DNA of 64,000 nucleotides from Trypanosoma brucei. Its lineage: Eukaryota. Of the stretch, positions 3,653 to 60,276 are shown one piece after another (position 1 is the first letter of the stretch; the number at the start of each line of letters is the position of its first letter). The DNA lies in assembly GCA_000002445.1 (NCBI GenBank), contig CP000067.1, forward strand, positions 1-64,000. Direction: 5' to 3'. The notes below the pieces were generated by a model. That model made no database searches and was not told the DNA's origin. It worked only from the letters and a program-made list of their open reading frames with translations. The translations under genes and the position numbers were made by a program.

Positions 3653-4715
3653 GGGATCCCACGGAAAAGGATTTACCAATACCAGGCGTACCAATAACAA
3701 CATGAAACATCGGATTGATAGCCACTTCACCCATAAGCCACTGGTTAAGCCGTTCCTCAACCTTATGCCACACCCTCAGTGTTTCCCTGCGGATATAAAC
3801 ATCACTATTAAAAACGTACCCCACTCCCTTCTTGTGATTAATATCATAATCATTTGGGTTCGCTTTACACGACGTGTATGGCCAACCCACTTGAGATGTG
3901 AGCACAGCAATCTCCAAGTTACCGTGACGAGGAAGTGGTTCGTTCATAGTTTTCGGAACGTGACTTACATCAACTTCCTCCTTTGTCCACATGCGCGGCG
4001 GTCTTCCATCGAACACTTTCAATCCAAGTGGCTCTTCATCACAGCCCGACATCACATAGCTCCATTTCGCATTGCAAATGGAATCATACAATCCTCTCAG
4101 TTCGCTACCATCAGCTGCTAGGACAGCTCGCTTTTCCGCTCTCTTGGCGGCTATCACTGCAGCATCCAACCTTCCCCTCGCCACGGGACCAACAAATTCC
4201 CTTATTTCCACTGTCCCCTTCTCCTCCCACTGACTGAGGGTGCTAATTTCCTTTTCGTCAAGATACCTTGCTTTCCGCTTCATTTCAGAGAATTGGTTAT
4301 ATAATTCTTTATATTCCTCAAACTCATCAAGCCCCCGTATCATTCCTAGAAGCCTTGCATCCAAAATATAATCCTCCGGGCTCTGAACAAAAATGGGCAT
4401 CCTAACATTTTCTGCCTCAGCCACCGCAAAAGTCCCGCCAACGAACTCCTGAATAAAGTCGTTCACTGTCATTTTACGCAGAACCTCATACCGTTGCAGC
4501 AATACATCTTCCAGCAGCACATCCCTCACCTTACTATCCATTGTCCAGTTGGGCCCCCCTTCAGTTCTCTGCCGTATTTGTGGAGGCTGAGCAGCAGCAG
4601 GCGGTGGCGGTACATTTTCATCCCGCGGTCTCCTCATGGGCCCTTCAATATTATCTGCCACTTGTTGGTTTGCATTATTTCCTTGTGGAGCTGCGGGACT
4701 ATTTGCTCTTGACAT

Positions 4716-36946: not shown

Positions 36947-37390
36947 TTCACTGTCCGAATAATAGCCTTAATTGAGTGTGTTGTGTTATTTCCTTTCTTT
37001 GTAACATAAATTAAAAAAAGAGATTAAAAATAGGGGAATATAAAAAGATACACTTCTAAACCAAATTACAATCAATGAATATTAGGAATTAATATGGAAG
37101 ATGAAAACTATTTATTGAAATTAGGATTCAATACAAATCTTATCATGTGTTGGGGTGTCACAGCAACTTAAGCACAAATAAGGTATGACAGTATGAATAA
37201 ACATTTCTGTTGGGAGTAAAACTCAAACAACAATTCCCAGTTACTGCACACAATCATTTCAGAAAAAATAATATACTTACATATATATGGGTATGGAAAA
37301 GCAAAAAAAATAAATAAATGTGGCATTGCCATGAAAAACAGCATATAATAGCTTTACTGATAAGCTATGCAAAACGTAGAATACTCGGTT
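36947..37390. repeat. Conserved RHS 5' flank, type B; almost identical copy at 51464..51905 and a more diverged copy at 42103..42520
   Basis: Direct reading: cactgtccgaataata.ccttaattgagtgtgttgtgttatttcctttctttgtaacataaattaaaaaaagagattaaaaataggggaatataaaaagatacacttctaaaccaaattacaatcaatgaatattaggaattaatatgg... appears in both copies. Confidence 0.85.
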
Positions 37391-37569: not shown

Positions 37570-38300
37570 TCACATCATATGGGTATTGCATGCAGTACAA
37601 TTTAAAGGAAGTGTAACTCATATAACATTTTCAAAAAAAAAGGTATTGAATGGTTGTTTGCTACCATCAATTACATTTCCAACGCCTGATTACACTTTTA
37701 TATGCATGAAGGAAGTTACTGATCATAACTTTGACATGCTCGAGAATTCATAACACAAAGCGACTGCTGCATGCAATAAAAAATAAAAATAAAAATAACA
37801 TCCGAATTAATTTACTGACAGATGAGTGCAATTCATTCATCCAAACTTCATAGCTGTAAACATAAACTCGCTGTTGCCAATAGGAAATAATCCCGCATAA
37901 ATATTGAGTATCTGAAAATGATAGCAACGGGTTTCCATTTTTGAAATATATGCATAAAATACATGAGGTATATGAAGCCATATTGGTAAAGTGTCACTAC
38001 ACATGTTGCAATTTACTATCAGAAGTGTCTGCCTTATTTTATTTCTTGTGTTACTGTAACTCATGAGTATTATTCATTATTCTGTACAATACAACTGTAA
38101 GTCATTTTGCATTTTTACATATTTTATTATTCTCTCATACTGGAAGTGTTCCACATATAAGATTCCTCAATATCGTTCACAAAATAAAAATAATTTCATT
38201 TCCTTCTGCATTCAGTTTCTCGTGTAGCAGTGTGTACAGTAATCATCCATAAAGTCTTTAATTTGCCAAATACATCATTACGAAACTATTTTCATACACA
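37570..38300. repeat. Second copy of the approximately 750 bp dispersed repeat seen at 6150..6900
   Basis: See 6150..6900. Confidence 0.8.
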
Positions 38301-40556
38301 AACACAAACACAAACAAATAAACAACCAAACATTTTTAAATGTTGCTGTGAAACGGAAATTTAATCACGGAAAATTGTGGGGCGCACACGTAATGGGCAC
38401 CATGAATGCCTCTTTGAATATTCCTCAATGGATTTTCACCAGCATCATCAACTTACTTTTTGTGTAAAAAAATAATAGAAACAAGACAGAACAGAAAAAA
38501 GAAATAAAGGTACAAATGCATTAATAAACCCAACTCCTCAGCAGGAAATCAAGAACAGGAAGTCACGAAAAGCGTATGGCACATATGATTTTCACCTCTC
38601 AGTTACTTAAGGTGGATCGCATGATTTACCCACCTTCTAAGAACACACCCTCCGAGAGGCCCGATTAAAAGAAAAAAAAACGCTATGACGGTTGAAAAGA
38701 CGTTTTTCATAAACCTTCACTTTATACGTGAGGATGCATAAATAAACAGTGATAACGATGAGAATGCTAACGGAAACAATGACGAACCGTGAGGATTCTA
38801 GAAAAAAAACACATACTTTTACATTAAGGAAACTTAATAAACAACAAAATATAAATATTCCCTACACAGAGGTATAGGGGGTGTTCGCCAACTTTGCAAC
38901 GTTGGCCAAAAAGTATTTAAATGTATCGATCATTCGTGTAGTCAATCAAATAAGAAGTAACATGTACTACACGCACAAAAGCACACTTATAAAGCCTACA
39001 AACCCACTTGCCCCCTTTTAGAGAATACCACTCTCTCGTCAGTGATAAGAGAGGTGATATTAAAAGTATTCCCTTTATAATTATTTCTGGTTCCTCAATT
39101 CGTTGCAACATAACATAACATGCAAAGATGTCGCATCAGGCAGCGGGGCCACCAGCAATAGCGTTTGGTTCATCCTGGGTGATCTCCTTAACAATATCCT
39201 TTTCCATCTTCACTTGAAACTGGTTGATTCTATTCCACAACTCTGTAGTATAATCGCCTCTGCCCCCAACTGGTTCGCACTTCTGCCTCTCCTCGATTGG
39301 CTTGCTGTCACTGTACTGTATGTAAATCAGCTCCCATTTCAAGTTTATTGCGAGCTCATCCCATTCACCAAACAATTGTTTCATTGCCTTGATAAACTTA
39401 TCTACCTTCGTTCGTGTCGTGTGATGCGTTGGTGCCACTGTCGTCTGGAGCAGAACAATTGTTGTTGTAATGATCGCTCTTCCTTCTGTATCAACAGCTG
39501 GCTCAGTTACAAAGAAAAAGGCGTCCACAACGGGGAAATTTCCCTGTGCAGGTCGGTAGAAGCACCCGACCTCGATGTCTTGGCCTGTCGTTTCGGGGTA
39601 AATATGACGAAGTGAAGTTGGAACACGTCCCACGGCATTACCACTTGCCAGAACGGATACATTTGAATCCATTTCTTCTCCAACGCGAGGGAGATACCGC
39701 AGGTGCGTCACAATCGTCTGCACAACATTTCCCATCGTGAAGGCATATACGCCCACATTTTCAAATTCATCAGCGGCCTGCTCTTTTTTCCCACGAAAAC
39801 CCTTTCGAAGGTAATTGTCTCGCATACATGCTGTGTCCGCCCACACTCTCAATTTCTGCTCAATATCAATGGAAACAGCTCTGTTTCTGCATTCTTCTCC
39901 ATTCTCAGTTACAACCCGGACCAATTTAGCCAACCTGTATGTAGTCCCGTCCTCGCGCCATTCAACTTGACCATTCAGCACCTGCATATAGTAACCATCA
40001 TCGCCTCTACTGATTTCTGCCAGTGCCTCATTTATTTCTCTAACGCGGCCCTTGTAGCGTTCGTCACCTTCCAGTACGTGGCGGGCAGTGGGCCCACCTT
40101 CTTAATCCATCCTTATATTTTCTGCCATTCATTCTCAAGGTTTATGATGTGAGCTTCGGTGATTTTACTTTCCTCCAACTTCGACAGCCGCCTCCACGCA
40201 ACCGCAGCCTTCAGTTCCACCTCTTCATAGCAATTGATGCAAAGGAACTCGCAACCCCGTGGTTCCTTCCACTCTTTGTAGTTATTTGGATCTGGAGATG
40301 TCAACACAATTACGGGCCACGTTTCCGGCAAGTCTGCGGGTATGGGTTGGTGCCTGTCTTTCGAAAAGTCGTATATAATATAACCAAGAAGCCATTCGTC
40401 AGCCAAGGCATTGACAGCATCCACTCCATCATTTTCTTTTTCATAGAATACAACCCTTCCCGGATGATCGTTTGTCGCCATGAAGAAAATATATGCCCTA
40501 CCCTTCACAAAATAAGCGATAATCCGCAACAGCTCCGAATCGTAATGCAGCAACCC

Positions 40557-40567
40557 TTGGAGCAGGA
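40557..40567. repeat. Target-site duplication TTGGAGCAGGA (left copy) of RIME #2
   Basis: The identical 11-mer is at 41078..41088. Confidence 0.8.
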
Positions 40568-41077
40568 TTTTTTTTTAGAATTTTCTTCGTGCCTTCGTGA
40601 GAGTTTCCCCCCACTGGCGCGGCCATCAGCCATCACCGTAGAGCCCTGAGATGCTATCGGTCTGGCGACTGTGGCAGAGTCTCCCTTTTTTATTCATCCT
40701 AACACACCCTCTATAATTTTTGTTGTATTTCCGCATATGAACGGAATACAGCAGATGGGGCGAGAAGCCTCCCACCCTGGACTCTCCCAAAGATGCCAAT
40801 TGGCAATCCTTTTTTGGAGGTCCACATCACCGGACAGCAGCATCTTAGTGCGGATGATACTGCTGATGGCACGCTGGCACGTGCCCAGGGACCGACAAAT
40901 GAAAAACGGTGTCCCAGCAAGACGCTGCTGATCCCTGTGCTGTATGATGCCGTAGCCGGAGCACAGCAGTGTTCCCCATGAAAGGAACGCTGCTGGCTCT
41001 TGGCTTCCCCCGATGATACGGGGTACTGGACCCTGGCACCACGTTGAGGTGGCCGGCATCGCCAGGGTTGGAGCAGG
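40568..41077 (-). mobile_element. RIME: RIME retroposon, full length (body about 501 bp plus 9 nt poly(A) at 40568..40576)
   Basis: About 97% identical to RIME #1 along its whole length. It ends with the same CCCTGGCGATGCCGGCCACCTCAACGTGG 5' 79-mer (reverse complement at 41049..41077). It is flanked by an 11 bp direct repeat. Confidence 0.85.
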
Positions 41078-41088
41078 AACGAGCCAAC
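41078..41088. repeat. Target-site duplication TTGGAGCAGGA (right copy) of RIME #2
   Basis: Identical to 40557..40567. Confidence 0.8.
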
Positions 41089-43158
41089 ACCAACTGATTT
41101 CCCAATACCTGCAGTGCCGACGAGGACGCAAGGAATCTGTTTTTCGATCAGCCCTGACTCCAGCCACAAATCCAGCCTCTGCTTCACAAGATACCACACT
41201 CTCATTACCTCTCGACGAATGTACACATCCAGGTCAAACACGTAGTCTCCTGGTTTTTCCGCATCCTCTTGAATTACACTTCGCGGAATGCGGAAACGAT
41301 GATATGGCCAACCCTTCTGTGAGGTGAGCACAGCAATCTCTAAATTACCACGTCAAGGCAGTGGGTCGCACAAATCGTAAGGCGTTTTACTGACATTCAC
41401 CTCCTCTTCTGTCCACAGCTCAGGCTCGCCGTCACAATTACCCACCACCTTCAGGCCAAGAGGTAAATCATTGTGACCCGACTCCACATAACCCCACGTC
41501 GCGCTATAAATGGAGTCGTATACTCCTTTCAGTTCGGCACCACCAGCTGTTTGAGCAGCTCCTCCCAATGCTTCATCGAGTGCATTATTCAACATGTTAG
41601 TGACAATAATTCAAGTCTGCTCTCCATTTCTCAGTCCACGAATATTCACCTGTAACCTGGCCTTTACTTCCTCATTTGCTTGTTTCCAGCGCACGAGATT
41701 CAATATTCCCTCATTCTCATAAAAACCATAGACGCTGACAAAACGTTTGTACACTTGATACTCTGTTGTCGCGAATATTCGATTGAGCGCATTAACGTCA
41801 TTAATATACTCTTCACATCGTTGTACAAACACAGATATTGATACATTATTTTCTTCTTTCACATTGTATCTTGTGCCAAAATTACTTCTCAAAAAATCAT
41901 TCAACATCACATTTCCAGGATGTGGCAGACCATTCAGCAAAACTGCTTCAATGCAGCTGAAAAGTCTCCATTGTGGTTGGTTGTTATTCTCCACTCGTTG
42001 CTGCACTGCTGGAGGTTCCGCATCGTTACGCGCAGCCTCCTCACGCTCTCGTCTCCTTCCCTCAATGTCACCCCTTCCTTCAATAGGAACCTGTTGATTC
42101 ATTTCACTCTCTGAATAATAATCTTAACTGAGTGCGTTGTGTTATTTCCTTTCTTTGTAATATAAATAAAGAATTAAGATGAGGGAATTTAAAATGGACA
42201 CACTTCTAAACCAAATCAAATATACAATCAATGAATATTAGGAATTAATATGGCAGGTGGAAACTATTTATTGAAATTAGGATTCAATACAAATCTTATC
42301 ATGTGTTGGGGCGCCACAGCAACTTAAGCACAGATAAGGTATGACAGTATGAATAAACATTTCTGTTGAGAGGAAAACTCAAACAACAATTCCCAGTTAC
42401 TTCACACCATCATTCCAAAAAAAATAATATACTTATATATATGTATGTATGGAAAAGCAAAAAATAAATAAATGTGGCATTGCCATGAAAAAAAAACAGT
42501 TTCACACGTGTGGTCCAAAAGCTGCATCAGCCAATACGATATCTTGACAGCTTGTCATGCAGTCTTGTCTCAAGAAGAAAATAAAACATTCATCTCTGCT
42601 TTCCGTTAATTGATAAATGAGATCCCATGCTGTGTTAACTCACGTCTCCATTCAAATAGTTGACTCAACGTTGTGACGAAGCAGTGACCAAAAACAATCC
42701 AAATGCAATTCCAAATTTCTTCATATTACGCTTTCAGTTTTATTACACATTTCCCCAACCATTCCGAGTACTAACAGGAATAATTTGGTTCTATCCTAAT
42801 GCATGTGCTTTCTACAGCTCTTTCATTTTGTTATGATCCGCACAAAAATTATATATGTGGTTGTTGATTCGTCCTGTCAATCAAAGTAACAATCATAATA
42901 ATTAATTTTCCCCTTTTCTTCATTTTTTCTATTAGCACATGTGCACCTTGGTGAGATCACTTTCACTCATTTGCACTGATTGGTCAACACCATTTAGTTC
43001 GTCATTCAACACACTCCCTTACATGTCCTCTTCTCACCATTTATAACCCACACGAGCAGCATCAAATATAAATTGTGAAGAGGTATGAGATCACAAGAAC
43101 TCGCTCTCATTGAGAAGGTTGGATGCGTCATATATATATATAATCATGTAATCCCTTT

Positions 43159-46047: not shown

Positions 46048-48337
46048 TCACCTTCGCTTTGCTTTCATCGCTCGCCTCCCCTGTGCCTTTTCTGCCTCCT
46101 GAAGATCTACCATCAGATGAGCATTCATTTCGTCCCCAAACGTTACTTGGAATTGTTCAATCATTTCCCAAAATGTTTGAAGTTGTTTCGCCTTCCTGGC
46201 AGGGATAACTTTGTCGTCGTTCGCCTCACATTTTTGCCAATTGGTAATCACACCGCCATTAACTCCATTCATGTATATCATCTCCCAAGCCATGTTACCC
46301 GAAAACGTGTTCCAGTCCGAAAAATATCCTTTAATTCTCTCCGTGAACGCATTCAACTTTGTCGCAGTGGTGGAGTGACAGTCCGACTTGGTCACGTGTA
46401 AAAGGACAAGTGTCTTTGGTTTTGGCGTTTTTTTCGCTTGCCTTCCAGGTGACATCGTGAAGCGCCCCTCAACGAAAAAAAAGCCATCCACCAAGGGTTC
46501 ATAGGCTGTGGCGGGAGTGTAGAGCACCATGTATTCGCAGCGTTCAATTGGGTTCTGCCTGGCTGCTGGTAAGACTTCCCATCCAGTGAGGCACAACTGC
46601 TGAGGAGTCATGCTACTCAGTATACTTTGTGTTCCCCTCAGCTTCTCAGGCGGATGGAGGTGTCTCAAGTTCTTTGCCATCATCTCGAGAACTCGAGGAT
46701 TGAGCACCGCAAACAACGCATGGCTTTCAAATGAAATGAAAGCGGCACTTCTGTTTCTCATCATGAGCTGGGACTCTGCTACTTTTCGCGCAGTAAAGCC
46801 AAGCACCGCCCAAAGTAGCAAGGTCCTTATGTGCCCGGAAAGCTCTTTGCTGCGATATGAATCTCCGGAAACTCCATTTCCACGCGAACGGACTATCTGT
46901 ACCATCTGGTACGACACCTTTTCAGTTTGCCAGTTCATTGATGACCTAAAAAGATCCTCGCAGCCATTTTTATCATTAGCATCGAGGCCTCTTATTTTTT
47001 TTGCCACCGCCTCCATTCGCCCTCCGTGCCCCACAGCGTCGTAAACGGCACGAGGCACCGGGCCGGCCACTGCAATACGCTGCTTTACAGTTTCCCATTC
47101 GTCCTCAAGATCTCCTTTTAACTTTTCTTTTGCTGTGTTGGATACCTTTTTACCTAATGCTACTGATAAATTCTTCCATGCCACAAATGCCTTCATGTCA
47201 CCCACATCATCGTAGTTTATAATAATATGGCGGCTTCCCATGTCCTTTTCCCACTCCTCATAATGTGCCGTATCCGGGGAAGTGAGGACAGTTATACCCC
47301 AACCCAAATGGCACAGCTCATCAGGCGGTATAAGTAGTTCGTTACCGATGTCGACAATGATGTGACCTCTTTTTTTTCTTATTGTTTTTATGAAGGTAAC
47401 GGCGGAATCGGTGCTTCTGTCTTCCTCAACCCTCCCCTCTTCTCCGGGTTTCTTGTTATGTATTAGGTAAGCGATTTTTCCCACGAAATATGCAACAACA
47501 TCAAGCATTCCTTCATTGAAGTGAAGCAGTGAATGAAGCAAAAATGATCCAAGGCCACATGTTTTACCAATACCAGGTGTACCAATAACAATATGTATCG
47601 GTGGTCTCTGTGCTTTTTCCACCCACCTTCCTTGCAGCCCTCGTTGAATTATATACCACACGCGCATAATTTCACGACGGATGTATACATGTTTAAGTTT
47701 TTCCCCGCACCTCTCAGTGTGGCCCAATGCAAACCTGTTGTATGGCCAACCTTTCTCCGAAGTGAGAACAAAAATCTCCAAACCATCAGGCCTCTCCTCA
47801 ATATCTGCATCGACATTCGTAGGATCAGGAGTTACATCCACCTCCTCCTTCGTCCACATGCGCGGTGGTCTTCCATCAAACACTTTCATTCCAAGTGGCT
47901 CCGCATCATAACCCGACATCACATAACTCCATTTTGCATTATAAATGGAATCGTATAATTTCTCTTTGAGAGACTTGCCCTCTCCGGTTTCTGATGGGTT
48001 CTCGTTTTTCCGCTCTCTTGGCGGCTATCACTGCAGCATCCAACATTCCCCTCGCCACGGGACCAACAAATTCCCTTATTTGCGCTGTTGCCCTCTCTTC
48101 CCATTGCTGTATGTCGCTAATCTCATTACGAGGCAGATAAATAACTGCCCTCAGTAATTGAAACTCCTCAAGCCGCTGTATTCTTCCTAGAATCCTGGCA
48201 TCTAAAATAAATCTTTTGTGATTCTTAACAAGCAAAAACATGGCTACATTCTGTGTGTCATACGTGTTTGAGAAGTATTGATCCAAAAAGTCATGCAGTT
48301 TTATTTCATCCAAACTCGCATAATCTTCCAGCAGCAC
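46048..48337 (-). pseudogene. RHS: Chimeric RHS pseudogene: N-terminally truncated type-A leader, a type-B leader segment, then a type-D core, with a frameshift at the junction
   Basis: ORF 47939..48337 ends ...VGPVARGMLDAAVIAAKRAEKRE (type A, cf. 4120..4160). It then switches frame at about 48000 into NENPSETGEGKSLKEKLYDSIYNAKWSYVMSGYDAEPLG (type-B leader, cf. 51310..51370), and continues as ORF 46048..47922 with P-loop IGTPGIGKTCG. Confidence 0.8.
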
Positions 48338-49435
48338 ATTCGCAATAGAGCTGTTAATTGACCAAGTTGACCCTTTTTCGCCTCCACGCAGTCAATTCAA
48401 AAAATATATTGCCGCATGCAACCTATTACTATGGAAACGCCTTATTGAATTCCACACTTCTGAAAACTTGCCCCCTGATTCTTCACAAGCTTGCGATAAA
48501 AGCATAAACAAAAATAGAATCAGAAACAGAGACAGAGACAGTTTACACTGTAGGAAAGGACATCACAGTGAGTCACTCATTCTAGGAAGATAATCACAAA
48601 AGCGAACACCAACAAAAAGACAGCTCAGCGCCATAAAGCAGAACCTACTTACTACTAATAAGGAGTTGTGCCCCTTCCCTGCCAGTAAAGACACAACATT
48701 CCCCAACAAACACAGTGGAAGATCACAAGACTTATGACCCCTCCATACTAACCTAAACAAGACATCGTGAATCACAATTGCATGCAATGCGCTAAGAACC
48801 CAAAACGGTTCCACACATTTGCCTCTGAAGATCCCTACTCAATCGCACCCCTACGCGGGAATCAATATTCTGCCTGTCACAAAATAACACAGCGGACGGC
48901 AGAGGGAAAGGGGGAAAATAAAGAAAGCCACCACAACACATAAGGATTTTAATGGGAACTTAAAGGAAACCTTCTAGATGAGAATGCTAACACCCATACC
49001 ACAACAGTGCTCACAATCCTCTTGTATATCAGTGTTTAATTAGTTTTTCACAAAATGATTTGATAATCGTAACGATTCAAGGAATAAAAAAATGTAAATG
49101 ATAAGACACGACGCAACAAGCTGCCACATTGCCATTAATGGATGTATGTAATACCATTGTTACTATCCATTTCATTGTGACAACACACGCAAAATACAAT
49201 CGATACCACGGATTTCGTACGCCTTCCGTCGTGCGGTGAATCGCAGAGTGGATGTAAACAGTTGCGAAAGGATTACACCAACGCAACCGTAAGTTCGTTA
49301 CGCTACCAGGAGCCTGTCCAGGATATACGATGAGTGAACTTCATTACTCCAACACAAAATGTGACGCCTCCTCTTGCCCTTTCATTCGTTCTTCACAGTG
49401 CTTACTTAATTGTTGGCTTGCTCGAGGTTCGCCAA

Positions 49436-51463
49436 TTACCTTCGGCCCGCAGCAGCCACCGCAAGCATTTTGATAACTATGTTATCCTCATACTGCACAT
49501 GGTACTGCTGCACATTGTTCTTCCAGAATCCCTTCACAAACTGGTGACTGCGGTGCTTTGCCTTACCCTGTGTAATTTCACACTTCTGCTCAGACCTCAT
49601 CGCTGTGGATTCGAAGTGCTGAACGTAAATGATTTCCCAGTGAAACATCTCAGTAATTTCCTCCAACTGCTCAACGGTAGCCTCATTCTGGTGACCCCCT
49701 CCCTCCGCACTTGGCAAGAGGGATTGTAACAAATGAATGAATTCGTCGGTTTTTGTGTCATGTCTGCTGGCAACAGTAAACTGCAACAACACAATAGTTT
49801 TCTTTCCTGTGGTTCCTGAAGCCTGTGCAGCCTCCTTGTCATCAACAATAAAGAATGCATCCGCTACGGGGTAGTTGGGAATGCACGGCACATATAATTC
49901 CACCGGAGCCCCCTCCGACTCAGCCCAGTTGATGTCACCTGGCACTGTGTTTGTTCGACCAACTTTGAGGAGGTCATCCCTTACGTGTTGCAAAATGCTT
50001 TTGCGTGTCCTCATGCGTCTGGCCCTTTCATTTGCTGGAAGTTTCGTTATTAAACTTACGAAGCAAGTTAACACTCTGGGGGAACACAAATATTTAATTG
50101 CATTCTCCTCAAAATAAAGCCCGATGGCAGATGCATTCCGCATCATACCAGTTGTCAGTGCCCACTCCTCAGCAATGCCGGAAAACACTACATTCAAAAT
50201 TCTTTTCTTTATAGATTCAGAATGCGCCACGCAGACATACGTGTCAAAGGAGTTTCCTTCTCGAGCTTTGATACGAACGATCTTCACGAGCTTATGTGAT
50301 GCATCATTGTCCCTCCATTCCCCACAGTTGTCCAGTACCTTAGTATATATTCCGTACTTGTTACCTGCTACGATACTCCCCAATTCCCCGTCCACTGCAG
50401 TAAGCTCCTGTCCATACATTACTTCGTCAAACACATAACGAAGTGAAGGTCCGACACGCTCCACACGGTTCTCATACATGTTCCACTTTTCCCTCAACTC
50501 AACATGCGTGGCTTGAGGAAACAGCTTGAGTCCCATACGTGAGAAGAAAGCCCGCATTTCACTCATTTCCCAGCAGTTAACAACAATAAAAGCGCCTTTA
50601 CGTTGCTTTTGCCAGCTGTCAAAATTTCTCAAATTGGGTGAACTGATCAAAATGCTTCCCCATTTTGGAGCCACATCTGCCGGTGGCTGCTCGCCTTTGT
50701 TGACGAAGTCATAAATAATATAACCACGTGTATTAGATGATATAACCTTCATAAACGTTATAGCCGCTTCTTTACTGTACTCCCTAACTCTGCCAACGCC
50801 ACCATTATCCGATTTTTCAAATATATATGCGGCTACACCACGGAAATACGCAACAACAGGCAACTCTTCCGCATCATAATGCAATAACTTGTAGAGGATA
50901 AAAGAACCCAAATTCTGAGATTTGCCAATCCCAGGATTACCAATGGCAACGTATGATCGTGGTAAATAAAGACATCCCGGTATAACACGCTGGGTACGCC
51001 ATAATTCAATTCCACTCCTTACAACATTCCATACGCGGAGCTCCTCTCTGCGAATGAATATGTCACTGTTACTTCCCCGGGCAAAGCCTGTATATGGCCA
51101 ACCCATTTCTGAGGTAAGAACCAACAGCTCAACTCCTTCCGTGCGTTCCGGCTTCTGTTCAAGAGTTTCCTCAATTTTGGGGACAACATTAAGTTCCTCA
51201 TCTTTCCACATCAAACCTTCATTGGGCATTCCATCAACCAACGTCATTCCCAATGGTTGAGTTCCATCGTCGATAATAATATAACTCCATTTCGCATTAT
51301 AGGTGGAATCGTATAATTTCTCTTCGAGAGACTTGCCCTCTCCGGTTTCTGATGGGTTCTCGTTTTCTCGGCTGGCTTGTCTCTTCATTGGGCGGTACGC
51401 ACCATTCAACCATCCATTTAAAACATTCCGAGTATCTCCCACACTACCGCCGTTCTGATTCAT
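49436..51463 (-). CDS. RHS: RHS protein, apparently intact (675 aa); type B N-terminus with a distinct core
   Basis: Uninterrupted ORF with P-loop IGNPGIGKSQNLGSFILYKLLHYDAEE. Its first 50 aa and about 440 bp upstream are nearly identical to the 34907..36946 copy. Confidence 0.85.
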   Translation of the reverse strand: MNQNGGSVGDTRNVLNGWLNGAYRPMKRQASRENENPSETGEGKSLEEKLYDSTYNAKWSYIIIDDGTQPLGMTLVDGMPNEGLMWKDEELNVVPKIEETLEQKPERTEGVELLVLTSEMGWPYTGFARGSNSDIFIRREELRVWNVVRSGIELWRTQRVIPGCLYLPRSYVAIGNPGIGKSQNLGSFILYKLLHYDAEELPVVAYFRGVAAYIFEKSDNGGVGRVREYSKEAAITFMKVISSNTRGYIIYDFVNKGEQPPADVAPKWGSILISSPNLRNFDSWQKQRKGAFIVVNCWEMSEMRAFFSRMGLKLFPQATHVELREKWNMYENRVERVGPSLRYVFDEVMYGQELTAVDGELGSIVAGNKYGIYTKVLDNCGEWRDNDASHKLVKIVRIKAREGNSFDTYVCVAHSESIKKRILNVVFSGIAEEWALTTGMMRNASAIGLYFEENAIKYLCSPRVLTCFVSLITKLPANERARRMRTRKSILQHVRDDLLKVGRTNTVPGDINWAESEGAPVELYVPCIPNYPVADAFFIVDDKEAAQASGTTGKKTIVLLQFTVASRHDTKTDEFIHLLQSLLPSAEGGGHQNEATVEQLEEITEMFHWEIIYVQHFESTAMRSEQKCEITQGKAKHRSHQFVKGFWKNNVQQYHVQYEDNIVIKMLAVAAAGRR

Positions 51464-51905
51464 TTCACTGTCCGAATAATAATCTTAATTGAGTGTGTTG
51501 TGTTATTTCCTTTCTTTGTAACATAAATTAAAAAAGAGATTAAAAATAGGGGAATATAAAAAGATACACTTCTAAACCAAATTACAATCAATGAATATTA
51601 GGAATTAATATGGAAGATGAAAACTATTTATTGAAATTAGGATTCAATACAAATCTTATCATGTGTTGGGGTGTCACAGCAACTTAAGCACAAATAAGGT
51701 ATGACAGTATGAATAAACATTTCTGTTGGGAGTAAAACTCAAACAACAATTCCCAGTTACTGCACACAATCATTTCAGAAAAAATAATATACTTACATAT
51801 ATATGGGTATGGAAAAGCAAAAAAAATAAATAAATGTGGCATTGCCATGAAAAACAGCATATAATAGCTTTACTGATAAGCTATGCAAAACGTAGAATAC
51901 TCGGT
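51464..51905. repeat. Conserved RHS 5' flank, type B (copy of 36947..37390)
   Basis: Almost base-for-base identical to 36953..37390, through ...gcatataatagctttactgataagctatgcaaaacgtagaatactcggtt. Confidence 0.85.
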
Positions 51906-54844
51906 TAAAGGTATTCATGCGCATGGTGAAGGATCTTTACATTAAGAAATAATACAAACAACTATCAGAACTTGCGCATAATCTCACATGAGCCGTCACT
52001 CGGAATGACGTTTCCATTACTTATTAACTTTGCAACAACAATTTTAATACATACTCTCACACTCCTAATCAGTACACAGTGTGCAAATGAAAGTACGAGA
52101 TATCAAAACATATACAATAATAATCGCCGTAAAAAGTAAAACCAATGAAAATAAAATCTTATACATCAAAGAGGAACCTCTCTCACCTGACGAACAAATG
52201 CTGCTCACTTTCTTTATTCTTTAAGTGATCCTGTGTTTTTTTTCTTGCGGCCATGGAACCATGAATACAAAGAACATATGAAGGCATGAAAGGTATTTGT
52301 TTTTGTTTTGGTATTGGAGCACCTTGCCATGCGTCTGATCTTGTGCCTTGGTGAAACTCAAAAGAAACGAAAGGCTCACGGAAGGGAACAAATATATTTG
52401 TGGGAATAACAATCCAATATTAGGCCTCTTTTAAGGAGTGTGCTGAGTGGAATAATGGTGAAAAAGAAGTATTGAAAATGTATGCTATATGGACAAATGC
52501 CTTACAATGTTTTCTCTCTATCTGAAACATATGGAATATATGGAATATATAAGGAACAAGAAACATAGGGAATATATGAAGAATAAGGAAATATATGATA
52601 TATTCTGAAGTGCCGGATGTGCTTGTGCGTGTCTTCGTATGTGTTCTCTGCTTTATATATCACTAAATATTTTACACATTTCATTTTACTTTGCGTATGC
52701 TAATAGCTTGTTTTTCCTTGCATCAATTCATGGAAATATCTATTAGAGAAATAATAATTTACTTTTTCTCTTCCTTTCCCGCTAATGTTTCACCGCCTAT
52801 TTTCATTCCTTATAAATACTGTAAATTTCTTTTGTTACTGTAACTATTTCCAAAAAAAATGTAATGGAGACACTTTAAGCATTACATATCATAATATCTC
52901 TAAACTCCTTCTATGTTATGTTAAGTTACAAATATTTTCATTCCCATTAATTTTATTCAGCAGAACATACAAAACACCCTCAAAAGTCCTTCCTTCCTTT
53001 CTTTTTCTTCAACATCATAATATACCTTGTGGAATATACAAATATATAATAACCATAAATGTGTTATATATCTTCACAACATCAGAAGCTATACAACAGA
53101 ATTGTGTTCCTCAAGAAGCAGTGGTTGTGTTTCCTTTTACTTTCTCTCAGAGTCAAACTAATTAATTAATTACTAATAACATCCTCCAAAGATATTGCTT
53201 CTATTTTCTTGGATCACTCAGCAGCGTAACACCGGAGTATTGAAATAAAGAGTCACAGTTCAAAGAAAATAAAACAGTAAAAAAAATAAACAGAGGCTCG
53301 CACCTTCACAATTGGTTGCATTTGGATATATCAAACGCATTTATACACTTGCATTCCTTGTGTTTCTTTTTTGGGGGAGGGTAAATGCAAAATGCAAAAT
53401 GTATCAAGTTGACGAGTAGAAGAAATACAACACTTGATATAATTTCACTTACATATAAGCTTTCGTTTCCCACTTTATTCTAATTCATAATATTTAGATA
53501 GCAATGTAATGGAGCATTCAGCCATAAACATTTTAACCATAAATATAGTAACTAATGTGTGAATGGTAACCCATGGTGATACATTCCATATGGAACAATA
53601 CCACATTGTTAAATATACGCATGGAATTAAAACTATAGCACTAAATTGAAAATGAAAAATTAGAAGAGAGAAAGATATGAATTATCAAAAGAGGCATATT
53701 CTTCACTAACATGCACTTGTTTCAATACAATCATAATTTCAAATTACTTTAAATGATAAGTGGCCCAATGTCCTGAAACGACACAATAACAATGATTTCA
53801 TTATAACAACTGTAAAATAATGATATGCAATAAAGTAAATAATATAAATAAATAAAAATACAGCAAGCACTGCAGAATATATTTTACTGCTATAACCATT
53901 TGCAAACAAATGAATAGCTTTGCTCATTGGAAGAAAATAATTAAATTCAAACTTCCTATGATTCTGCCAGTGTTGGTGAGCTACGTGTGGGACTCAAAAA
54001 AAACAAAAGTTTATTTTAAATAAATATAAAGAAAAGAAAAACTTCTCATGAAACCATAAGGGTACCCCTGTGAGTTATGTGCTGCTGTAAAACATAGTTA
54101 ACTTCACAACCCTCAAGAAAGAAAGAAATAATAAAAGTAAAATGTAAACAAAAATAAAGTTAAGATATATAATACACTTATGCTTAACTAAATGTAACGT
54201 GTCATACGTAAAGGTGATAAAATAATAATCACAATGTAATGTTATCAATGCTTTCCTTCGCAAACGAAAACTGTCACATCTCAATGTGTTCTTCCAAATT
54301 AATATAAAGGAACCAGCTGTGTTTGTATAATATTCTACAATGTCATTTGGCATTGTCCAATGCTCACTCAAAAAACTCCTTCGTTTTGTTGCGATGTAGC
54401 TGTTGACAGTGTTGTGCTCTTTTTCTTTTTTATTTTTTAACATACAACTATGGGTTTCCGTAATCCTCTCAATATTGCTGCAGTTCCCATCATTAAAAAA
54501 AAAACAAAAGAAATCCATCAAAATAGCGTAACTGGAGTATAAGATGTTGTAGAGAACAATGTATTTATTTTGAGTAATGGAACTCTGTGAGGTCGAAGAC
54601 AATAATCCGAAACGATTGAACCGAAACTTTCATTGCCCCATGCCTGTAAAATAATAATTTAATTGCTCAACGCATATTCTCATCCTGCAGTAAGTAGTTC
54701 AAACAATTTCGTACACACATGAAACACTGGAAGGAAAAGAAAACATATACATTGCATAAACCTTTACTAAATGAAAATACTATTTTTGGTATCGAGTTCA
54801 CCATGTGTTACAGAGCCACATTTCACTAACATGCTAAAGCATAA

Positions 54845-56542
54845 TTAATTCATCATCATATTTCTGATCATCAGCGATAGGGCTTGACATTTGTATGATT
54901 CGACTCCTCCAACATTTCCTTTTACTCTTACAATCTTCACCAACTTGTTCATAACTTCATCGTTCCGCCAGTCAGCCGTGTGTTCAATAATATCATTATA
55001 GCAATATTTATCAGATTTCTTCATAGCTCTCAACGCATCATACACACTTTTCAGATGCCACTCATAACAACCTAAACCAAATATATAACGAGGCAGCGGT
55101 CCAATTAAATTAATGCGTTCCTCCACTATTTTCCACTCATCTTCAATTTCTCTCTTCAATTCGTATCTTCTTCTGTTGGACACCTTTTCTCCTGTATGTA
55201 TTGACAGCTTTTTCCATGCCATAAATGCCTTCATGTCACGCACATCATCGCAGTTCATAATAATTTGGTGGCCTCCCTTATTTGCACTCCACTCATCAAA
55301 ATGGTCACTTTTAGGGAAAGTGAGGAAAGTTACACTCCAAACATCAGAGGGAAGTTGAGTGTATAGTTGCTCCATTGCATACCTTGTGTCCATAACAATG
55401 TGCCCTTTGCTTTCAGATTTCATTTTATTTATGGCAGCAACGGCAGACTCCCAGCGTTCGTATTCATCAACAGTCCCTCTTTCCTCACCCTCTCGGTTGT
55501 ATATCAGGAAGGCAGAATCCTCCAAGAAATATGCAACAACATCAAGCATTCCTTCATTGAAGTGAAGCAGTGAATAAAATAAAAATGATCCAAGGCCACA
55601 TGTTTTACCAATTCCAGACGTGCCAATAATAATATGTATTGGTGGACCCTCAGCTGTTGCTTCCATCCACCATGCTTTCAGACCTCGTTGGATTATATAC
55701 CACACGCGCATAATTTCACGACGGATATATACATGCTTGCAAATTGTCTTGCATCTCTCAGTGTAACCCAATACAAACCTGTTGTATGGCCAACCCTTCT
55801 CCGACGTAAGAACAAAAATCTCCAAACCATTGGATCCTTCCTTTACTCTTGCATCAACATCGGCAGTTTTAGGAGTTATATTCAATTCTGCCTCCGTCCA
55901 TATGCGCTGCGGCCTTCCATCGAATACCTTCATTCCAAGTGGCTCCGCATCATAACCCGACATCACATAACTCCATTTCGCATTGTAAAAAGAATCGTAA
56001 ACATCTCGACAACTTTTGACAGAAACACGCGGCAGAAACCATACTTCTGATTCCGTGACAGCATATTGTACTGCATTCAACCTTCCCCTTGCTACAGGGC
56101 TAATGGAGTTTTTCACCTCTGGAGTTGCACCGTTCACCCAATCGCTGATGGTATAAATTTTTTCCTCTTTAAGGTAGTTTATCCACATTTCTGTTTCAGG
56201 CAGTTTCTCAACAATCCTTTTGTACTCCCTGAACTCATAAAGCCCCTGTATATCCTCAAGAATCTCGGCATCCTTAATATAATCTTCAGGATTCTTAACA
56301 AACGTTTCCATTGACACATTCACTGTGTTATACGTGTTTGAGAAGCATTGATTCAAAAAGTCATGCAGATTCATTTTGGGCAATGTCGCATATTCTTCCA
56401 GCAAAAAATCCCTCACTGTACTGTTCATTTTACAATCAGAAAATCTTTTATATCTCTGCGGCATCTGTGGAGGCTGAGCAGGAGGAGGTGCTACATGTTC
56501 ATCCCGTGGCCTCCTCATGGCTCCTTCAATGTTATTTGGCAC
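54845..56542 (-). CDS. RHS: RHS protein copy, C-terminally truncated (565 aa; stop falls about 250-290 codons before the position where the 46048-type core continues). It is likely a pseudogene or truncated variant.
   Basis: Type-A-like N-terminus MPNNIEGAMRRPRDEHVAPPP..., P-loop IGTSGIGKTCG, and it ends ...LVKIVRVKGNVGGVESYKCQALSLMIRNMMMN* at a TAA. The ancestral upstream ATG (cf. ATGTCAAGAGCAAAT at 4715) reads ATATCAAGAGCCAAT here. Confidence 0.7.
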   Translation of the reverse strand: MPNNIEGAMRRPRDEHVAPPPAQPPQMPQRYKRFSDCKMNSTVRDFLLEEYATLPKMNLHDFLNQCFSNTYNTVNVSMETFVKNPEDYIKDAEILEDIQGLYEFREYKRIVEKLPETEMWINYLKEEKIYTISDWVNGATPEVKNSISPVARGRLNAVQYAVTESEVWFLPRVSVKSCRDVYDSFYNAKWSYVMSGYDAEPLGMKVFDGRPQRIWTEAELNITPKTADVDARVKEGSNGLEIFVLTSEKGWPYNRFVLGYTERCKTICKHVYIRREIMRVWYIIQRGLKAWWMEATAEGPPIHIIIGTSGIGKTCGLGSFLFYSLLHFNEGMLDVVAYFLEDSAFLIYNREGEERGTVDEYERWESAVAAINKMKSESKGHIVMDTRYAMEQLYTQLPSDVWSVTFLTFPKSDHFDEWSANKGGHQIIMNCDDVRDMKAFMAWKKLSIHTGEKVSNRRRYELKREIEDEWKIVEERINLIGPLPRYIFGLGCYEWHLKSVYDALRAMKKSDKYCYNDIIEHTADWRNDEVMNKLVKIVRVKGNVGGVESYKCQALSLMIRNMMMN

Positions 56543-59500
56543 TTGTGGGTTTGCGTTATTTCCTTGTGGAGCTGCGGGGCTATTGGCTCTTGATATAACT
56601 ATTTTAACAACCGTTATTAACTTAACTATCTTTTCTTAACTTTACTTTTTTAACTGAAATTATAAATAGCTGAAGTAAAGCAGCCGATGAGGAAAACAAA
56701 AGTGTGTGAATTGTGTAACATAATATCAAATGTGATAGAGCAAGATAATATTTATTTACCGCTGTTTGCATAATATGATATCATAATGTATTTGATATTA
56801 AGGAAAACAATTTCAAAATATAGTAGCTGTTAATAAATTATTTCCCTTGCTTCATCATTATGTGCCAAATATAATTAATTTCCTGTATCATTCTTTTTAA
56901 ACCATATATAATATGGAAACAAAAAATATTACTGCCTCATACACCTGAATAAACACTTTGTATAGAGTTGACAGTTGTGAAAGGTCAAATTCTATTAATT
57001 AAAATCATTTTTTAAAAATAAACAATAAGCAGAAATATATATGGATATTAATGAAAGGGGAAAAGAATATCGGCACGAGGTATGGATATACACACATTAG
57101 TACAGACACATGAATACACAACTGTTTTCCTGCTATTTCCTCCTTTCTGCCAATACGAGGCATTCAGTTGTATTGAAGGAACTCGTTGAAATATAAATCA
57201 TTTTTCTAACCCATATACTTACCACCGGAATAACGTATTGAATAATCTCTGTATGATATTTATGGAATTGATAATTCTTTTTTCCCCTTTTATAACGTGG
57301 AATGCTGATGCAGCTCTTGGTAGTGTTTCACCAGCAGTCTTCATTGAGATTCCATGCGGTGTCGTAGCATTGTGAGGAGAGTTCTGGGCAGAGGAGACCC
57401 GGGTTCCGCAATGTTGGATTCAGTGTGGGGCCGACATTGGCTCACGATAGGACTCATGAAGGAGCTTGTGAGAGTTCTCTTTTCATGCGCAATCCGAAAG
57501 AGTAGAGGACAATGAATTTATGTCTCCGGTAAAAGAGAGGTTCATCACGTTGTTCACTATATTTGCTTCCGCCTCGTTCATTTAGTGGTTGTTGTGACCC
57601 TTTTTTCTGGGGTGGGGGATTTCTGTCCCTCTTTTCCTCAATGCTACCGCTTTGTCTCGAGTTTTGTGTGTCTGCTTTTGTGCCTTGGTGAAACTCAAAA
57701 GAAACGCTAGCGAAAGGCTCACAGAAGTTAATAAATATATTTGTAGAAATAATCCAATAATGGACCTCTTTTGAGGAATGGTGAGTGAAAAAAATGGTGC
57801 AAAAAAACATTGAAAATTTATGCCACATGGACAAGTGCTTTATAATGTTCCCACTGTGTGGAAATATGGAATATATAAGGAACATATGAGAGGCAGTGAA
57901 TAGTTATAGAACAAACGGAATATATGGAGAACAAGAAACGTAGGGAATATATCAAATGTATGGTATATATGGAATGTATGAGAGGCAAAAAGTATGGAAA
58001 AACTTTGTTAATTGAATATACATTCATGTATTCTCAGGTGCTGGATGTGTTTGTGCGTGTATTTATATGTATGTGTTCTCTGCTTTATATATCACTAAAT
58101 ATTTTACACATTTCATTTTACTTTGCGTATGCTAATAGCTTGTTTTTCCTTGCATCAATTCATGGAAATATCTATTAGAGAAATAATAATTTACTTTTTC
58201 TCTTCCTTTCCCGCTAATGTTTCACCGCCTATTTCCATTCCTTATAAATACTGTAAATTTCTTTTGTTACTGTAACTATTTCCAAAAAAAATGTAAGTAA
58301 GACAGTTTAAGCATTACACATCATAATATCTCCAAACTCCTTCTATGTTATGTTAAGCTACAAATATTTTCATTCCCATTAATTTTATTCAGCAGAACAT
58401 ACAAAACACCCTCAAAAGTCCTTCCTTCCTTTCTTTATTTTTTTTTTTGAAATCATAATATATCTTGTGGAATATACAAATATATAATAACCATAAATGT
58501 GTTATATATCATCAAAACATCAGCAGCTTCACGACATAATTGTGTCCTTCAATAAGCAGTGGTTGTGTTTCCTTTTATTTTATCTCAGAGTCAAACTAAT
58601 TAATTAATTACTAACAGCATCCTCCAAAAATGTTTCTTCTATTTTCTTGGATCACTCAGCAGCGTAACACCGGAGTATTGAAATAAAGAGTCACAGTTCA
58701 AAGAATACAAAACAGTAAAAAAAATAAACAGAGGCTCGCACCTTCACAATTGGTTGCATTTGGATATATCAAACGCATTTATACACTTGCATTCCTTGTG
58801 TTTCTTTTTTGGGGGAGGGTAAATGCAAAATGTATCAAGTTGACGAGTAGAAGAAATACAGCACTTGATATAATTTCACTTACATATAAGCTTTCGTTTC
58901 CCACTTTATTCTAATTCATAATATTTAGATAGCAATGTAATGCAGTATTCAGCAATAAACATTTTAACCATAAATATAGTAACTAATGTGTGAATGGTAG
59001 CCCATGGCGATACATTCCATATGGAACAATACCACATTGTTAAATATATACATCGAATTAAAACTATAGCACTAAATTGAAAATGAAAAATTAGAAGAGA
59101 GAAAGATATGAATTATCAAAAGAGGCATATTCTTCACTAACATGCACTTGTTTCAATACAATCATAATTTCAAATTACTTTAAATGATAAGTGGCCCAAT
59201 GTCCTGAAATGACACAATAACAATGATTTCATTATAGCACCTGTAAAATAATGATATGAAATAAAATAAATAATAAAAATAAATAAAAATACAGCAAGCA
59301 CTGCAGAATATATTTTACTGCTATAACCATTTGCCAACAGATGAATAGCTTTGCTCATTGGAAGAAAATAATTAAATTCAAACTTCCTATGACTATGCCA
59401 GTGTTAATGAGCTACGTGTGGGACTCAAAAAAAAAAACAAAAAGTTTATTTTAAATAAACATGAAGAAAAGAAAAACTTCTCATGAAACCATAAGGGTAT

Positions 59501-60276
59501 CCGTGTGAGTTATGTGCTGCTGTCAAACATAGTTAACTTCACAACCCTTAAGAAAGAGAGAAATAATAAAAGTAAAATGTAAACAAAAATAAAGGTAAGA
59601 TATATAATACACTTATGCTTAACTAAATGTAACATGTCATACGTAAAGGTGATAAAATAATAATCACAATGTAATGTTATCAATGCTTTCCTTCGCAAAC
59701 GAAAACTGTCACATCTCAATGTGTTCTTTCAAATTAATATAAAGGAACCAGCTGTGTTTGTATAATATTCTACAATGTCATTTGGCATTGTCCAATGCTC
59801 ACTCAAAAAACTCCTTCGTTTTGTTGCGATGTAGCTGTTGTCAGTTGTGCTCTTTTTTTATTTTATTTTTTAACATACAACTATGGGTTTCCGTAATCCT
59901 CTCAATATTGCTGCAGTTCCCATCATTAAAAAAAAACAAAAGAAATCCATCAAAATAGCGTAACTGGAGTATAAGATGTTGTAGAGAACAATGTATTTAT
60001 TTTGAGTAATGGAACTCTGTGAGGTCGAAGACAATAATCCTAAACGATTGAACCGAAACTTTCATTGCCCCATGCCTGTAAAATAATAATTTAATTGCTC
60101 AACGCATATTCTCATCCTGCAGTAAGTAGTTCAAACAATTTCGTACACACATGAAACACTGGAAGGAAAAGAAAACATATACATTGCATAAACCTTTACT
60201 AAATGAAAATACTATTTTTGGTATCGAGTTCACCATGTGTTACAGAGCCACATTTCACTAACATGCTAAAGCATAA

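What the first reader, a model, noticed from the sequence alone, without database searches (positions are those of the whole stretch)
47960..48020. Recombination junction creating a chimeric, frameshifted RHS at a 9-10 bp microhomology
Reading the minus strand, type-A leader coding sequence gccgccaagagagcggaaaa (AAKRAEK; cf. 4128..4147) abruptly continues as acgagaacccatcagaaaccggagagggcaag (ENENPSETGEGK; cf. 51335..51365), the type-B leader. The switch lies inside GAAAA(A/G)CGAG, which is present in both parents, and it shifts the frame by 1. This looks like the direct footprint of the segmental exchange that generates RHS mosaics.
Basis: seen in the sequence. Interest (0 to 1): 0.6.

Follow-up and report, generated by a model that had tools for sequence, protein, structure and literature searches.

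The report
Frameshifted chimeric RHS pseudogene junction
A Trypanosoma brucei "retrotransposon hot spot" (RHS4) gene copy had its start replaced by a fragment of another RHS gene's leader, joined out of frame at a few shared bases; this is a real but ordinary pseudogene-making repair scar.

Summary
The window is T. b. brucei TREU927 DNA carrying a minus-strand array of RHS genes. Read on the minus strand, 48081-48006 is 75/76 identical to the long ("type A") leader at 4207-4132. From 48008 to 47959 it is 49/50 identical to the short ("type B") leaders at 51366-51317 and 36849-36800. Each side is at random-level identity to the other parent. The switch lies in AAA 48008-48006, inside a 12-nt imperfect microhomology (48012-48001, 9/12). 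The two reading frames differ by one base there, so the leader frame stops at 47941-47939.

The interpretation needs correcting. The body is an RHS4 gene (91% to CAD53013), whose native leader is the short type. The foreign piece is a 5'-truncated long-leader fragment (48388-48006) with no start codon. The window copies cited as parents are paralogues, not donors. None of 77 RHS homologues combines the two leader motifs.

The junction best fits microhomology-mediated illegitimate recombination, possibly one-sided MMEJ gene conversion. That pathway is documented experimentally in T. brucei. About two thirds of TREU927 RHS copies are already classed as pseudogenes, and chimeric RHS were described in 2002. 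It is a clean natural example of a known process, of low novelty.

The parts
48006..48388 (-). 5'-truncated long-leader fragment, corresponding to about residues 51-178 of long-leader RHS proteins and including a DUF7578 domain. It has no start codon. An in-frame TGA lies just upstream at 48394-48392, and there is no homology to any RHS 5' flank upstream of it.
   Evidence: Pfam DUF7578 hit on ORF 47939-48337. tblastn of P0008 (RHS3) residues 51-179 matches 48388-48002 at 68% identity; P0020, P0003 and P0002 match at 50-56%. The upstream alignment fades at about 48390-48400. Region 48300-49500 has no other match in the window.
48001..48012 (-). Junction microhomology: chimera CGGAAAAACGAG, long-leader parent type CGGAAAAGCGAG, short-leader parent type CGAGAAAACGAG (9/12 shared). 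The crossover is confined to AAA at 48008-48006. The last A-specific sites are 48010 and 48009, and the first B-specific site is 48005.
   Evidence: The rarity of such registers (7e-4) is.
47959..48005 (-). Distal part of the short ('MNQNGG...') RHS leader, equivalent to codons 34-49 of RHS4 (NENPSETGEGKSLKEK). It is read here in the frame of the downstream body and is out of frame with the upstream leader fragment.
   Evidence: 49/50 identity to 51366-51317. tblastn of P0001 residues 32-260 matches 48012-47326 at 88% identity in the body frame.
47939..47941 (-). TAA stop that ends the leader-frame ORF 21 codons after the junction (tail REPIRNRRGQVSQREIIRFHL*).
46048..47958 (-). RHS4-type body, still an open frame. 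RHS_N is at about 47919-47629, the P-loop domain at about 47592-46657, the Walker A motif GTPGIGKT at 47583-47560, and the stop TGA at 46050-46048. The first ATG in this frame is at 47919-47917. The retroelement hot spot just 3' of the P-loop is unoccupied.
   Evidence: Pfam RHS_N 6e-26 and RHSP 1.7e-56. 91% identity to RHS4 P0001, with 97-100% in the C-terminal half. Names and accessions are; coordinates are.

Best explanation
The locus 46048-48388 (minus strand) is an RHS4 pseudogene in a tandem RHS array of T. b. brucei TREU927. It was made by one illegitimate, microhomology-mediated recombination.

Shown:
- A start-less fragment of a long RHS leader was joined to codon 32-34 of a short-leader RHS4 gene.
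- The join lies within the imperfect microhomology CGGAAAA(G/A)CGAG.
- The two parental reading frames are offset by 1 nt in that register.
- RHS4's own 5' flank and first 31 codons are gone.
- The leader frame terminates 21 codons after the join, and the RHS4 body is left without its initiation codon.

Inferred:
- The join arose during repair of a DNA break by the MMEJ machinery that dominates end joining in T. brucei.
- The most likely form is 'one-sided' MMEJ gene conversion. Homologous pairing in the conserved RHS_N/P-loop sequence just downstream would anchor one end, and the 12-nt microhomology would resolve the other.
- An MMEJ (micro-SSA) deletion between two neighbouring tandem copies would leave the same scar.

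The junction has no function. It is a repair scar that inactivated a gene copy.
For: - Sharp switch of best match at 48009/48005, with 75/76 identity on the left and 49/50 on the right, and random-level identity to the other parent on each side.
- The observed sequence is exactly what one crossover in the 9/12 register gives, with no extra mutation, and that register offsets the frames by one.
- Registers this good make up 7e-4 of all possibilities.
- Long and short leaders show no detectable homology at DNA level (p about 0.08-0.26) or protein level (z <= 1.6). This is therefore microhomology, not homeologous pairing.
- The body is RHS4 throughout. Intact RHS4 proteins (P0001, P0079) carry the short leader.
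- The conserved 444-bp 5' flank of short-leader genes (51464-51906 = 36947-37390) is absent upstream of the chimera.
- None of 77 RHS homologues combines the long-leader motif KRAEK with the short-leader motif NPSxTG. In intact proteins NPSxTG always sits at residue 36.
- In T. brucei, MMEJ uses 5-20 bp microhomologies and tolerates mismatches. NHEJ has not been found. RAD51-dependent one-sided MMEJ gene conversion (HR at one end, microhomology at the other, 28-1084 bp copied) has been shown experimentally (PMC3045614).
Against: - The true parental copies were not available. DNA of RHS4 on the 1.06-Mb contig could not be fetched. The crossover interval (3 nt with the window's B copies, up to 7 nt if the parent read CGG AAA AAC like P0001's RKN) and the direction of transfer are therefore inferred.
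- The repair pathway cannot be read from a scar. A replication template switch would look identical.
- The leader fragment has a second, unexplained boundary at about 48390, so more than one event shaped the locus.
- Only intact annotated proteins were surveyed for the same junction. Pseudogenes were not.
Confidence: 0.72

Rival explanations
1. Short-patch templated gene conversion into a long-leader RHS4-like gene. The recipient was a gene like P0002 (long leader plus RHS4-like body). Only about 50-65 nt (48005 to about 47941) were copied from a short-leader RHS. The right end resolved in the homologous LYDSIYNAKWSY region and the left end in the microhomology.
For: Relative to the long-leader copy A, the B-specific sites form a bounded patch from 48005 to 47941, after which the sequence is again A/B2/C-like. 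A long-leader RHS4-like protein exists (P0002, 75% identity). Break-induced VSG mosaics in T. brucei are typically short templated insertions (mean about 46-55 bp) flanked by short shared sequence (PMC13233330). Other roughly 45-nt patches of different affinity occur in the same gene, for example 47884-47841.
Against: The body matches short-leader RHS4 P0001 better than P0002 in nearly every 40-residue window, and at 97-100% versus 65-87% in the C-terminal half. The leader fragment is 5'-truncated, which this model does not explain. The junction chemistry at the left end (microhomology, out of frame) is the same as in the best explanation, so this is a variant of it rather than a different mechanism.
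Confidence: 0.15
2. An in-frame exchange followed by homopolymer slippage. Recombination in the GAAAA register, where both parents read GAA AA- in the same codon phase, first gave an in-frame GCG GAA AAC GAG. A later +1 slip in the A-run (A4 to A5) then produced the frameshift.
For: Both parents carry GAAAA in the same codon phase. Insertions or deletions of 1 nt in A-runs are the commonest indels (general knowledge).
Against: It needs two events where one suffices. The observed sequence equals the direct product of a single crossover in the better (9/12) register. No in-frame version was seen among 77 homologues. Even in frame, the gene would lack a start codon and its 5' flank.
Confidence: 0.08
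3. Assembly or sequencing artefact: a chimeric join of two RHS copies, or a miscounted A-run, in a repetitive region of the reference.
For: RHS arrays are repetitive and hard to assemble. The frameshift depends on one base of an A5 run.
Against: Mis-assembly joins at long identical repeats, not at a 3-12 nt microhomology between non-homologous leaders. Flanking ORFs in the window are identical to annotated TREU927 proteins. The locus also lacks its 5' flank and start independently of the A-run. No reads were available to test this directly.
Confidence: 0.03
4. Ancient family architecture: 'ENENPSETGEGKSL' is simply an alternative linker of some long-leader RHS subfamily, so no recombination occurred at this position.
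For: The linker between KRAEK and LYDS is variable among long-leader subfamilies.
Against: In 77 homologues the two motifs are mutually exclusive. The junction is out of frame. The switch is abrupt at nucleotide level, with near-identity to different paralogues on each side.
Confidence: 0.02

Closest known systems
RHS (retrotransposon hot spot) pseudogenes and chimeric RHS of Trypanosoma brucei (Bringaud et al. 2002, Eukaryot Cell 1:137; counts in Florini et al. 2019, PMC6393297)
   Same: It has the same family domains (RHS_N, P-loop RHSP, DUF7578 leader). It has an RHS4 C-terminal subfamily body and sits in a tandem same-strand array. The ORF is disrupted by a frameshift or truncation, and modules from different subfamilies are combined by recombination in the 5' region.
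   Different: This copy is not disrupted by RIME/ingi, and its hot spot is empty. The disruption is a leader-to-leader join at microhomology about 420 nt upstream of the hot spot. I could not read the 2002 paper (not held), so whether this particular copy or junction was described is unknown.
[quoted passage not shown] 2008, PMC2377438)
   Same: The junction lies in a 5-20 bp microhomology with tolerated mismatches, and the template switch falls inside the largest perfect patch. Extended homology is available on one side only, and the outcome is non-conservative and can be gene-destroying.
   Different: Those junctions were induced by I-SceI at engineered loci and the pathway was shown genetically. 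Here only the natural scar is seen. The break site, donor and RAD51 dependence are unknown.
Segmental gene conversion forming mosaic VSGs in T. brucei (PMC13233330; Hall et al. 2013)
   Same: It involves short templated tracts (tens of bp) exchanged among paralogues of a large subtelomeric family, with boundaries at short shared sequences. Pseudogenes take part.
   Different: VSG mosaics are selected for function and form in frame between related family members. This RHS junction joins non-homologous leaders, is out of frame, and has no evident selective value.
Mosaic RHS genes of Trypanosoma cruzi (Bernardo et al. 2020, PMC7563717)
   Same: Recombination among RHS paralogues gives mosaics of up to three donor fragments, often in the N-terminal coding region.
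   Different: Those were transcribed, mostly intact genes detected statistically (RDP4), without base-level junction anatomy. It is a different species with different subfamilies.

Membership tests
RHS (retrotransposon hot spot) gene family, T. brucei | RHS_N domain followed by the RHS P-loop (ATP/GTP-binding) domain | tested here: met
   Pfam RHS_N 6.1e-26 and RHSP 1.7e-56 on ORF 46048-47922. Walker A motif GTPGIGKT at 47583-47560.
RHS (retrotransposon hot spot) gene family, T. brucei | Subfamily assignment by the divergent C-terminal region (RHS1-6) | tested here: met
   91% identity overall, and 97-100% in the C-terminal half, to the protein that its sources name RHS4 (CAD53013.1 / XP_846380.1).
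RHS (retrotransposon hot spot) gene family, T. brucei | RIME/ingi insertion at the hot spot a few codons 3' of the P-loop. This feature names the family but is not required of each member. | tested here: not met
   There is no insertion in this copy; the ORF is continuous through 47583-47400. Neighbouring copies do carry one: 3133-3640, flanked by the 12-bp duplication TGTATAACAGTA, and 40568-41109.
RHS pseudogene | Coding frame disrupted or start lost, relative to intact family members | tested here: met
   A frameshift at 48005-48009 leads to a stop at 47941-47939. There is no ATG at the head of the leader fragment, an in-frame TGA lies at 48394-48392, and the native RHS4 start and 5' flank are absent.
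MMEJ / micro-SSA junction | The breakpoint lies within a 5-20 bp (possibly mismatched) microhomology shared by otherwise non-homologous partners | tested here: met
   12-nt stretch with 9/12 shared and a 3-nt perfect crossover patch; 7 nt and 11/12 if the parent was P0001-like. The register falls in the top 7e-4. The leaders are otherwise non-homologous.
MMEJ / micro-SSA junction | Loss of the sequence between the two microhomology copies on one chromosome; RAD51 independence | not testable with these tools
   The pre-event arrangement and the parents are not available, and no genetics is possible.
One-sided MMEJ gene conversion (Glover et al. 2011) | Extended homology at one end of the copied tract and microhomology at the other | tested here: inconclusive
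   Downstream of 47958 the RHS_N/P-loop region is 75-90% identical among paralogues over hundreds of nt, and the upstream end is the microhomology. The geometry therefore fits. The homologous end of a tract cannot be located without the recipient and donor sequences.
One-sided MMEJ gene conversion (Glover et al. 2011) | Donor left intact; RAD51 dependence | not testable with these tools
   This needs the donor locus and genetic experiments.

The most novel reading that the evidence does not exclude
RHS arrays may preserve a natural, base-resolution record of microhomology-mediated module swapping. This out-of-frame junction would be a failed instance of the same process that created the working leader classes. 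In support, short-leader genes share their 5' flank and ATG AAT CA with RHS2-type long-leader genes and then diverge abruptly. MMEJ or one-sided conversion, rather than only homologous exchange, would then be a main engine of RHS domain shuffling.
Probability: 0.2. Interest if true: 0.35.

Novelty: new member of a known kind. Interest (0 to 1): 0.15.

Why it matters
It matters little on its own. The finding documents, at base resolution, how one of the many RHS pseudogenes of T. brucei was inactivated. It also gives a natural example of the microhomology-type junctions that have been produced experimentally in this organism. A genome-wide catalogue of such junctions in RHS, VSG and other subtelomeric families could show how much MMEJ contributes to their evolution compared with homologous conversion. 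That question is already posed in the literature, and this single scar does not answer it.

Tried and rejected
- Fetching parental or orthologous DNA failed. The look-up of encoding contigs has no record for P0001 (RHS4) or P0043. An exact-pattern scan of metagenome contigs with the shared 26-mer found nothing. The bacterial/archaeal, phage, plasmid and E. coli collections are irrelevant to a trypanosome and were not used.
- A protein search with the leader-frame ORF, including its frameshifted tail, was run to find the same junction annotated in other subspecies. It returned one unrelated 115-aa DUF7578 protein (P0078, 59% identity).
- An exact look-up of the 623-aa and 624-aa body ORF found neither in the collection.
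- I tested whether the short and long leaders are diverged homologues, which would make the 'microhomology' residual homology. The DNA local alignment was not better than shuffles (80/1000 to 131/500 shuffles reach it). Protein Smith-Waterman z-scores ranged from -0.7 to 1.6. This idea was rejected.
- I tested whether the junction coincides with the RIME/ingi hot spot. It does not. The hot spot is just 3' of the P-loop (47583-47560), about 420 nt downstream, and is empty here.
- The family-wide architecture idea was rejected by the motif survey.
- The 2002 RHS paper (PMC118050 / PMID 12455980) is not held. Its content is cited only as summarised in PMC7563717.

Full report
**What the window is.** All the large minus-strand ORFs carry the trypanosome-specific Pfam domains RHS_N and RHSP (retrotransposon hot spot protein, P-loop domain). 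Some also carry the leader domain DUF7578. Two of them (34907-36946 and 49436-51463) are identical, residue for residue, to proteins annotated in Trypanosoma brucei brucei TREU927 on a 1,590,432-bp contig. "RHS" here is therefore the trypanosome retrotransposon-hot-spot family, not bacterial Rhs.

The window holds a same-strand array of RHS copies:
- an RHS1-type long-leader pseudogene (1682-4715, "type A");
- a short-leader gene (34907-36946, "B2");
- an RHS2-type pseudogene (about 38900-42102);
- the copy under study (46048-48388);
- a short-leader gene (49436-51463, "type B");
- two truncated long-leader copies (54845-56542 and 60277-61974, "C").

**Checking the observation.** On the minus strand the sequence reads ...GTGATAGCCGCCAAGAGAGCGGAAAAACGAGAACCCATCAGAAACCGGAGAGGGCAAG....
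- The 24 nt to the left of the A-run recur only in the type-A leader at 4132-4155.
- The 24 nt to the right recur only in the two short leaders, at 51341-51364 and 36824-36847.
- The 30-mer spanning the join is unique in the window.

In gapless register:
- 48081-48006 is 75/76 identical to A, while B scores 17/69 over 48081-48013;
- 48008-47959 is 49/50 identical to B and 48/50 to B2, while A scores 14/46 over 48005-47960.

Sites that discriminate A from B read 65 A: 5 B up to 48009, followed by 33 consecutive B from 48005 (best split Fisher p = 2.6e-9). The switch is abrupt.

The cited parental coordinates are a few bases off. The motif GAAAA(A/G)CGAG is not literally present in the window's type-B copies, which read GAGAAAACGAG. 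These are small corrections.

**Anatomy of the junction.** Over 48012-48001 the three sequences are:
- chimera: CGGAAAAACGAG
- type A: CGGAAAAGCGAG
- type B: CGAGAAAACGAG

The chimera equals A down to 48006 and equals B from 48008 onward. One crossover inside AAA (48008-48006) therefore yields the observed sequence with no further mutation. A and B share 9 of these 12 positions. Of all 83,368 possible 12-nt registers between the A leader and the B leader, only 59 (7e-4) are this good. A random blunt join would very rarely land on one.

In this register the A codons (GCG GAA AAG) and the B codons (CGA GAA AAC GAG) are offset by one base. The leader frame therefore runs into REPIRNRRGQVSQREIIRFHL and stops at TAA 47941-47939. 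The downstream frame (...RKNENPSETGEGKSLKEKLYDSIYNAKWSYVMSG...) stays open to TGA 46050-46048.

**What the two halves really are.** A search with the frame-corrected protein found 77 RHS homologues. The best is 91% identical and is the protein its sources name RHS4 (CAD53013.1 / XP_846380.1).
- RHS4 is the best match in essentially every 40-residue window of the body, reaching 97-100% in the C-terminal half.
- Intact RHS4 proteins are 685 aa and start with the short leader MNQNGG...RQAGRKNENPSETGEGKSLEEKLYDS.
- Homology of the chimera to RHS4 begins at residue 32 (RKNENP), which is 48012.

The "type-B" part is therefore simply this gene's own leader. What is foreign is the upstream piece, 48388-48006.
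- It matches residues 51-179 of long-leader proteins, best to an RHS3 protein (P0008, 68%).
- It is RHS3-like through ...ARGMLDAA and then RHS1-like through VIAAKRAEK.
- It has no start codon, and an in-frame TGA lies at 48394-48392.
- Upstream of about 48390 it has no similarity to the 5' flanks of any RHS copy in the window.
- The 444-bp 5' flank that the two short-leader genes share at 99.3% identity is absent.

The locus is thus an RHS4 copy whose 5' flank and first 31 codons were replaced by a truncated, start-less long-leader fragment. It is a pseudogene on two counts.

**Is it a family architecture or residual homology?** It is neither.
- Among the 77 homologues, the long-leader motif KRAEK and the short-leader motif NPSxTG never occur together. 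In intact proteins NPSxTG is always at residue 36.
- The short and long leaders show no significant similarity at DNA level (best local score reached by 80/1000 to 131/500 shuffles) or at protein level (z between -0.7 and 1.6).

The shared 12-mer is therefore microhomology between unrelated sequences.

**Mechanism.** The shown facts are a single abrupt join, a short mismatched microhomology, an out-of-frame product, and loss of the native 5' end. The rest is inferred.

In T. brucei, non-homologous end joining has not been detected. [quoted passage not shown] A RAD51-dependent "one-sided" variant copies 28-1084 bp, with homology at one end and microhomology at the other (PMC3045614). The geometry here fits that variant. 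Immediately downstream, the RHS_N/P-loop region is 75-90% identical among paralogues, and the upstream end sits in the microhomology.

An MMEJ deletion between adjacent tandem copies, or a replication template switch, would leave the same scar, and the scar alone cannot separate them.

One variant reading has a long-leader RHS4-like gene (compare P0002) receiving only a 50-65-nt patch from a short-leader copy.
- For it: the bounded run of B-specific sites (48005-47941), and the short tract lengths of break-induced VSG mosaics (PMC13233330).
- Against it: the body is consistently closer to short-leader RHS4 than to P0002.

A two-step model, an in-frame exchange in the GAAAA register followed by a +1 slip in the A-run, is possible but unnecessary. 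An assembly artefact is unlikely, because mis-assemblies join at long repeats rather than at a 3-12-nt overlap between non-homologous leaders. I had no reads to test this.

**Comparison with what is known.** RHS genes were defined in 2002 as a family with six C-terminal subfamilies and a RIME/ingi insertion hot spot just 3' of the P-loop codons. Pseudogenes arising by crossing-over between variants in the 5' region were already proposed then (as summarised in PMC7563717; the original paper is not held). In TREU927, 78 of 118 annotated RHS are considered pseudogenes because of retroelement insertion or truncated ORFs (PMC6393297). Mosaic RHS have been catalogued in T. cruzi (PMC7563717).

The present junction is a further instance of this known class. 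Its only distinctive point is that the base-level scar can be read cleanly and matches the experimentally defined MMEJ signature. It is unrelated to the retroelement hot spot, which is about 420 nt downstream and empty in this copy.

**Verdict.** The finding is ordinary for this genome. Novelty: a new member of a known kind. Interest: 0.15.

Noticed in passing
window 3121-3652 (and 40568-41109): A 508-bp RIME-like element lies at 3133-3640 in minus orientation, with its poly(A) seen as T15 at 3133-3147. It sits inside the RHS1-type pseudogene a few codons 3' of the P-loop and is flanked by a perfect 12-bp duplication, TGTATAACAGTA (3121-3132 and 3641-3652). This is the textbook RHS hot-spot insertion. 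A 95%-identical copy sits at the same relative position in the RHS2-type pseudogene.
   Followed up: partly
window 51464-51906, 36947-37390, 42103-42492: The 5' flank of the two short-leader genes is 99.3% identical over 444 bp. It is 89% identical to the flank of the RHS2-type long-leader gene. The homology ends right after ATG AAT CA, and the next roughly 135 nt of the short leader match nothing else. The short-leader class itself looks like the product of an older 5' module replacement.
   Followed up: partly
window 47841-47933 and 48006-48050: The chimera is finely mosaic. The leader fragment is RHS3-like (ARGMLDAA) and then RHS1-like (VIAAKRAEK). In the RHS4 body, 47884-47841 (RPPRMWTKEEVDV) follows the RHS1/B2 type and 47933-47902 follows the type-C copies. 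This suggests several short conversion tracts.
   Followed up: partly
window 48389-49435: The roughly 1-kb spacer between the stop of the upstream gene (49436) and the leader fragment has no match elsewhere in the window. It is shorter than other inter-RHS spacers here. The boundary at about 48390, where long-leader homology ends, is a second, unexplained junction.
   Followed up: partly
window 52330-64000: There is a tandem duplication of a roughly 5.4-kb unit. ORFs 54845-56542 and 60277-61974 are both 565 aa with the P-loop domain truncated. Spacers 52330-54000, 57667-59431 and 63102-64000 are 81-88% identical.
   Followed up: no
window 18596-22941 (+) and 14278-14832 (+): Two adjacent leucine-rich-repeat ORFs (519 and 918 aa) lie in different frames. 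They may be one interrupted LRR protein gene. There is also a 184-aa ORF matching the receptor-type adenylate cyclase periplasmic-binding-like domain. Both lie on the strand opposite to the RHS array.
   Followed up: no
window 6159-6896 and 37579-38318: A 740-bp intergenic repeat, 94.6% identical, lies upstream of two different RHS copies.
   Followed up: no
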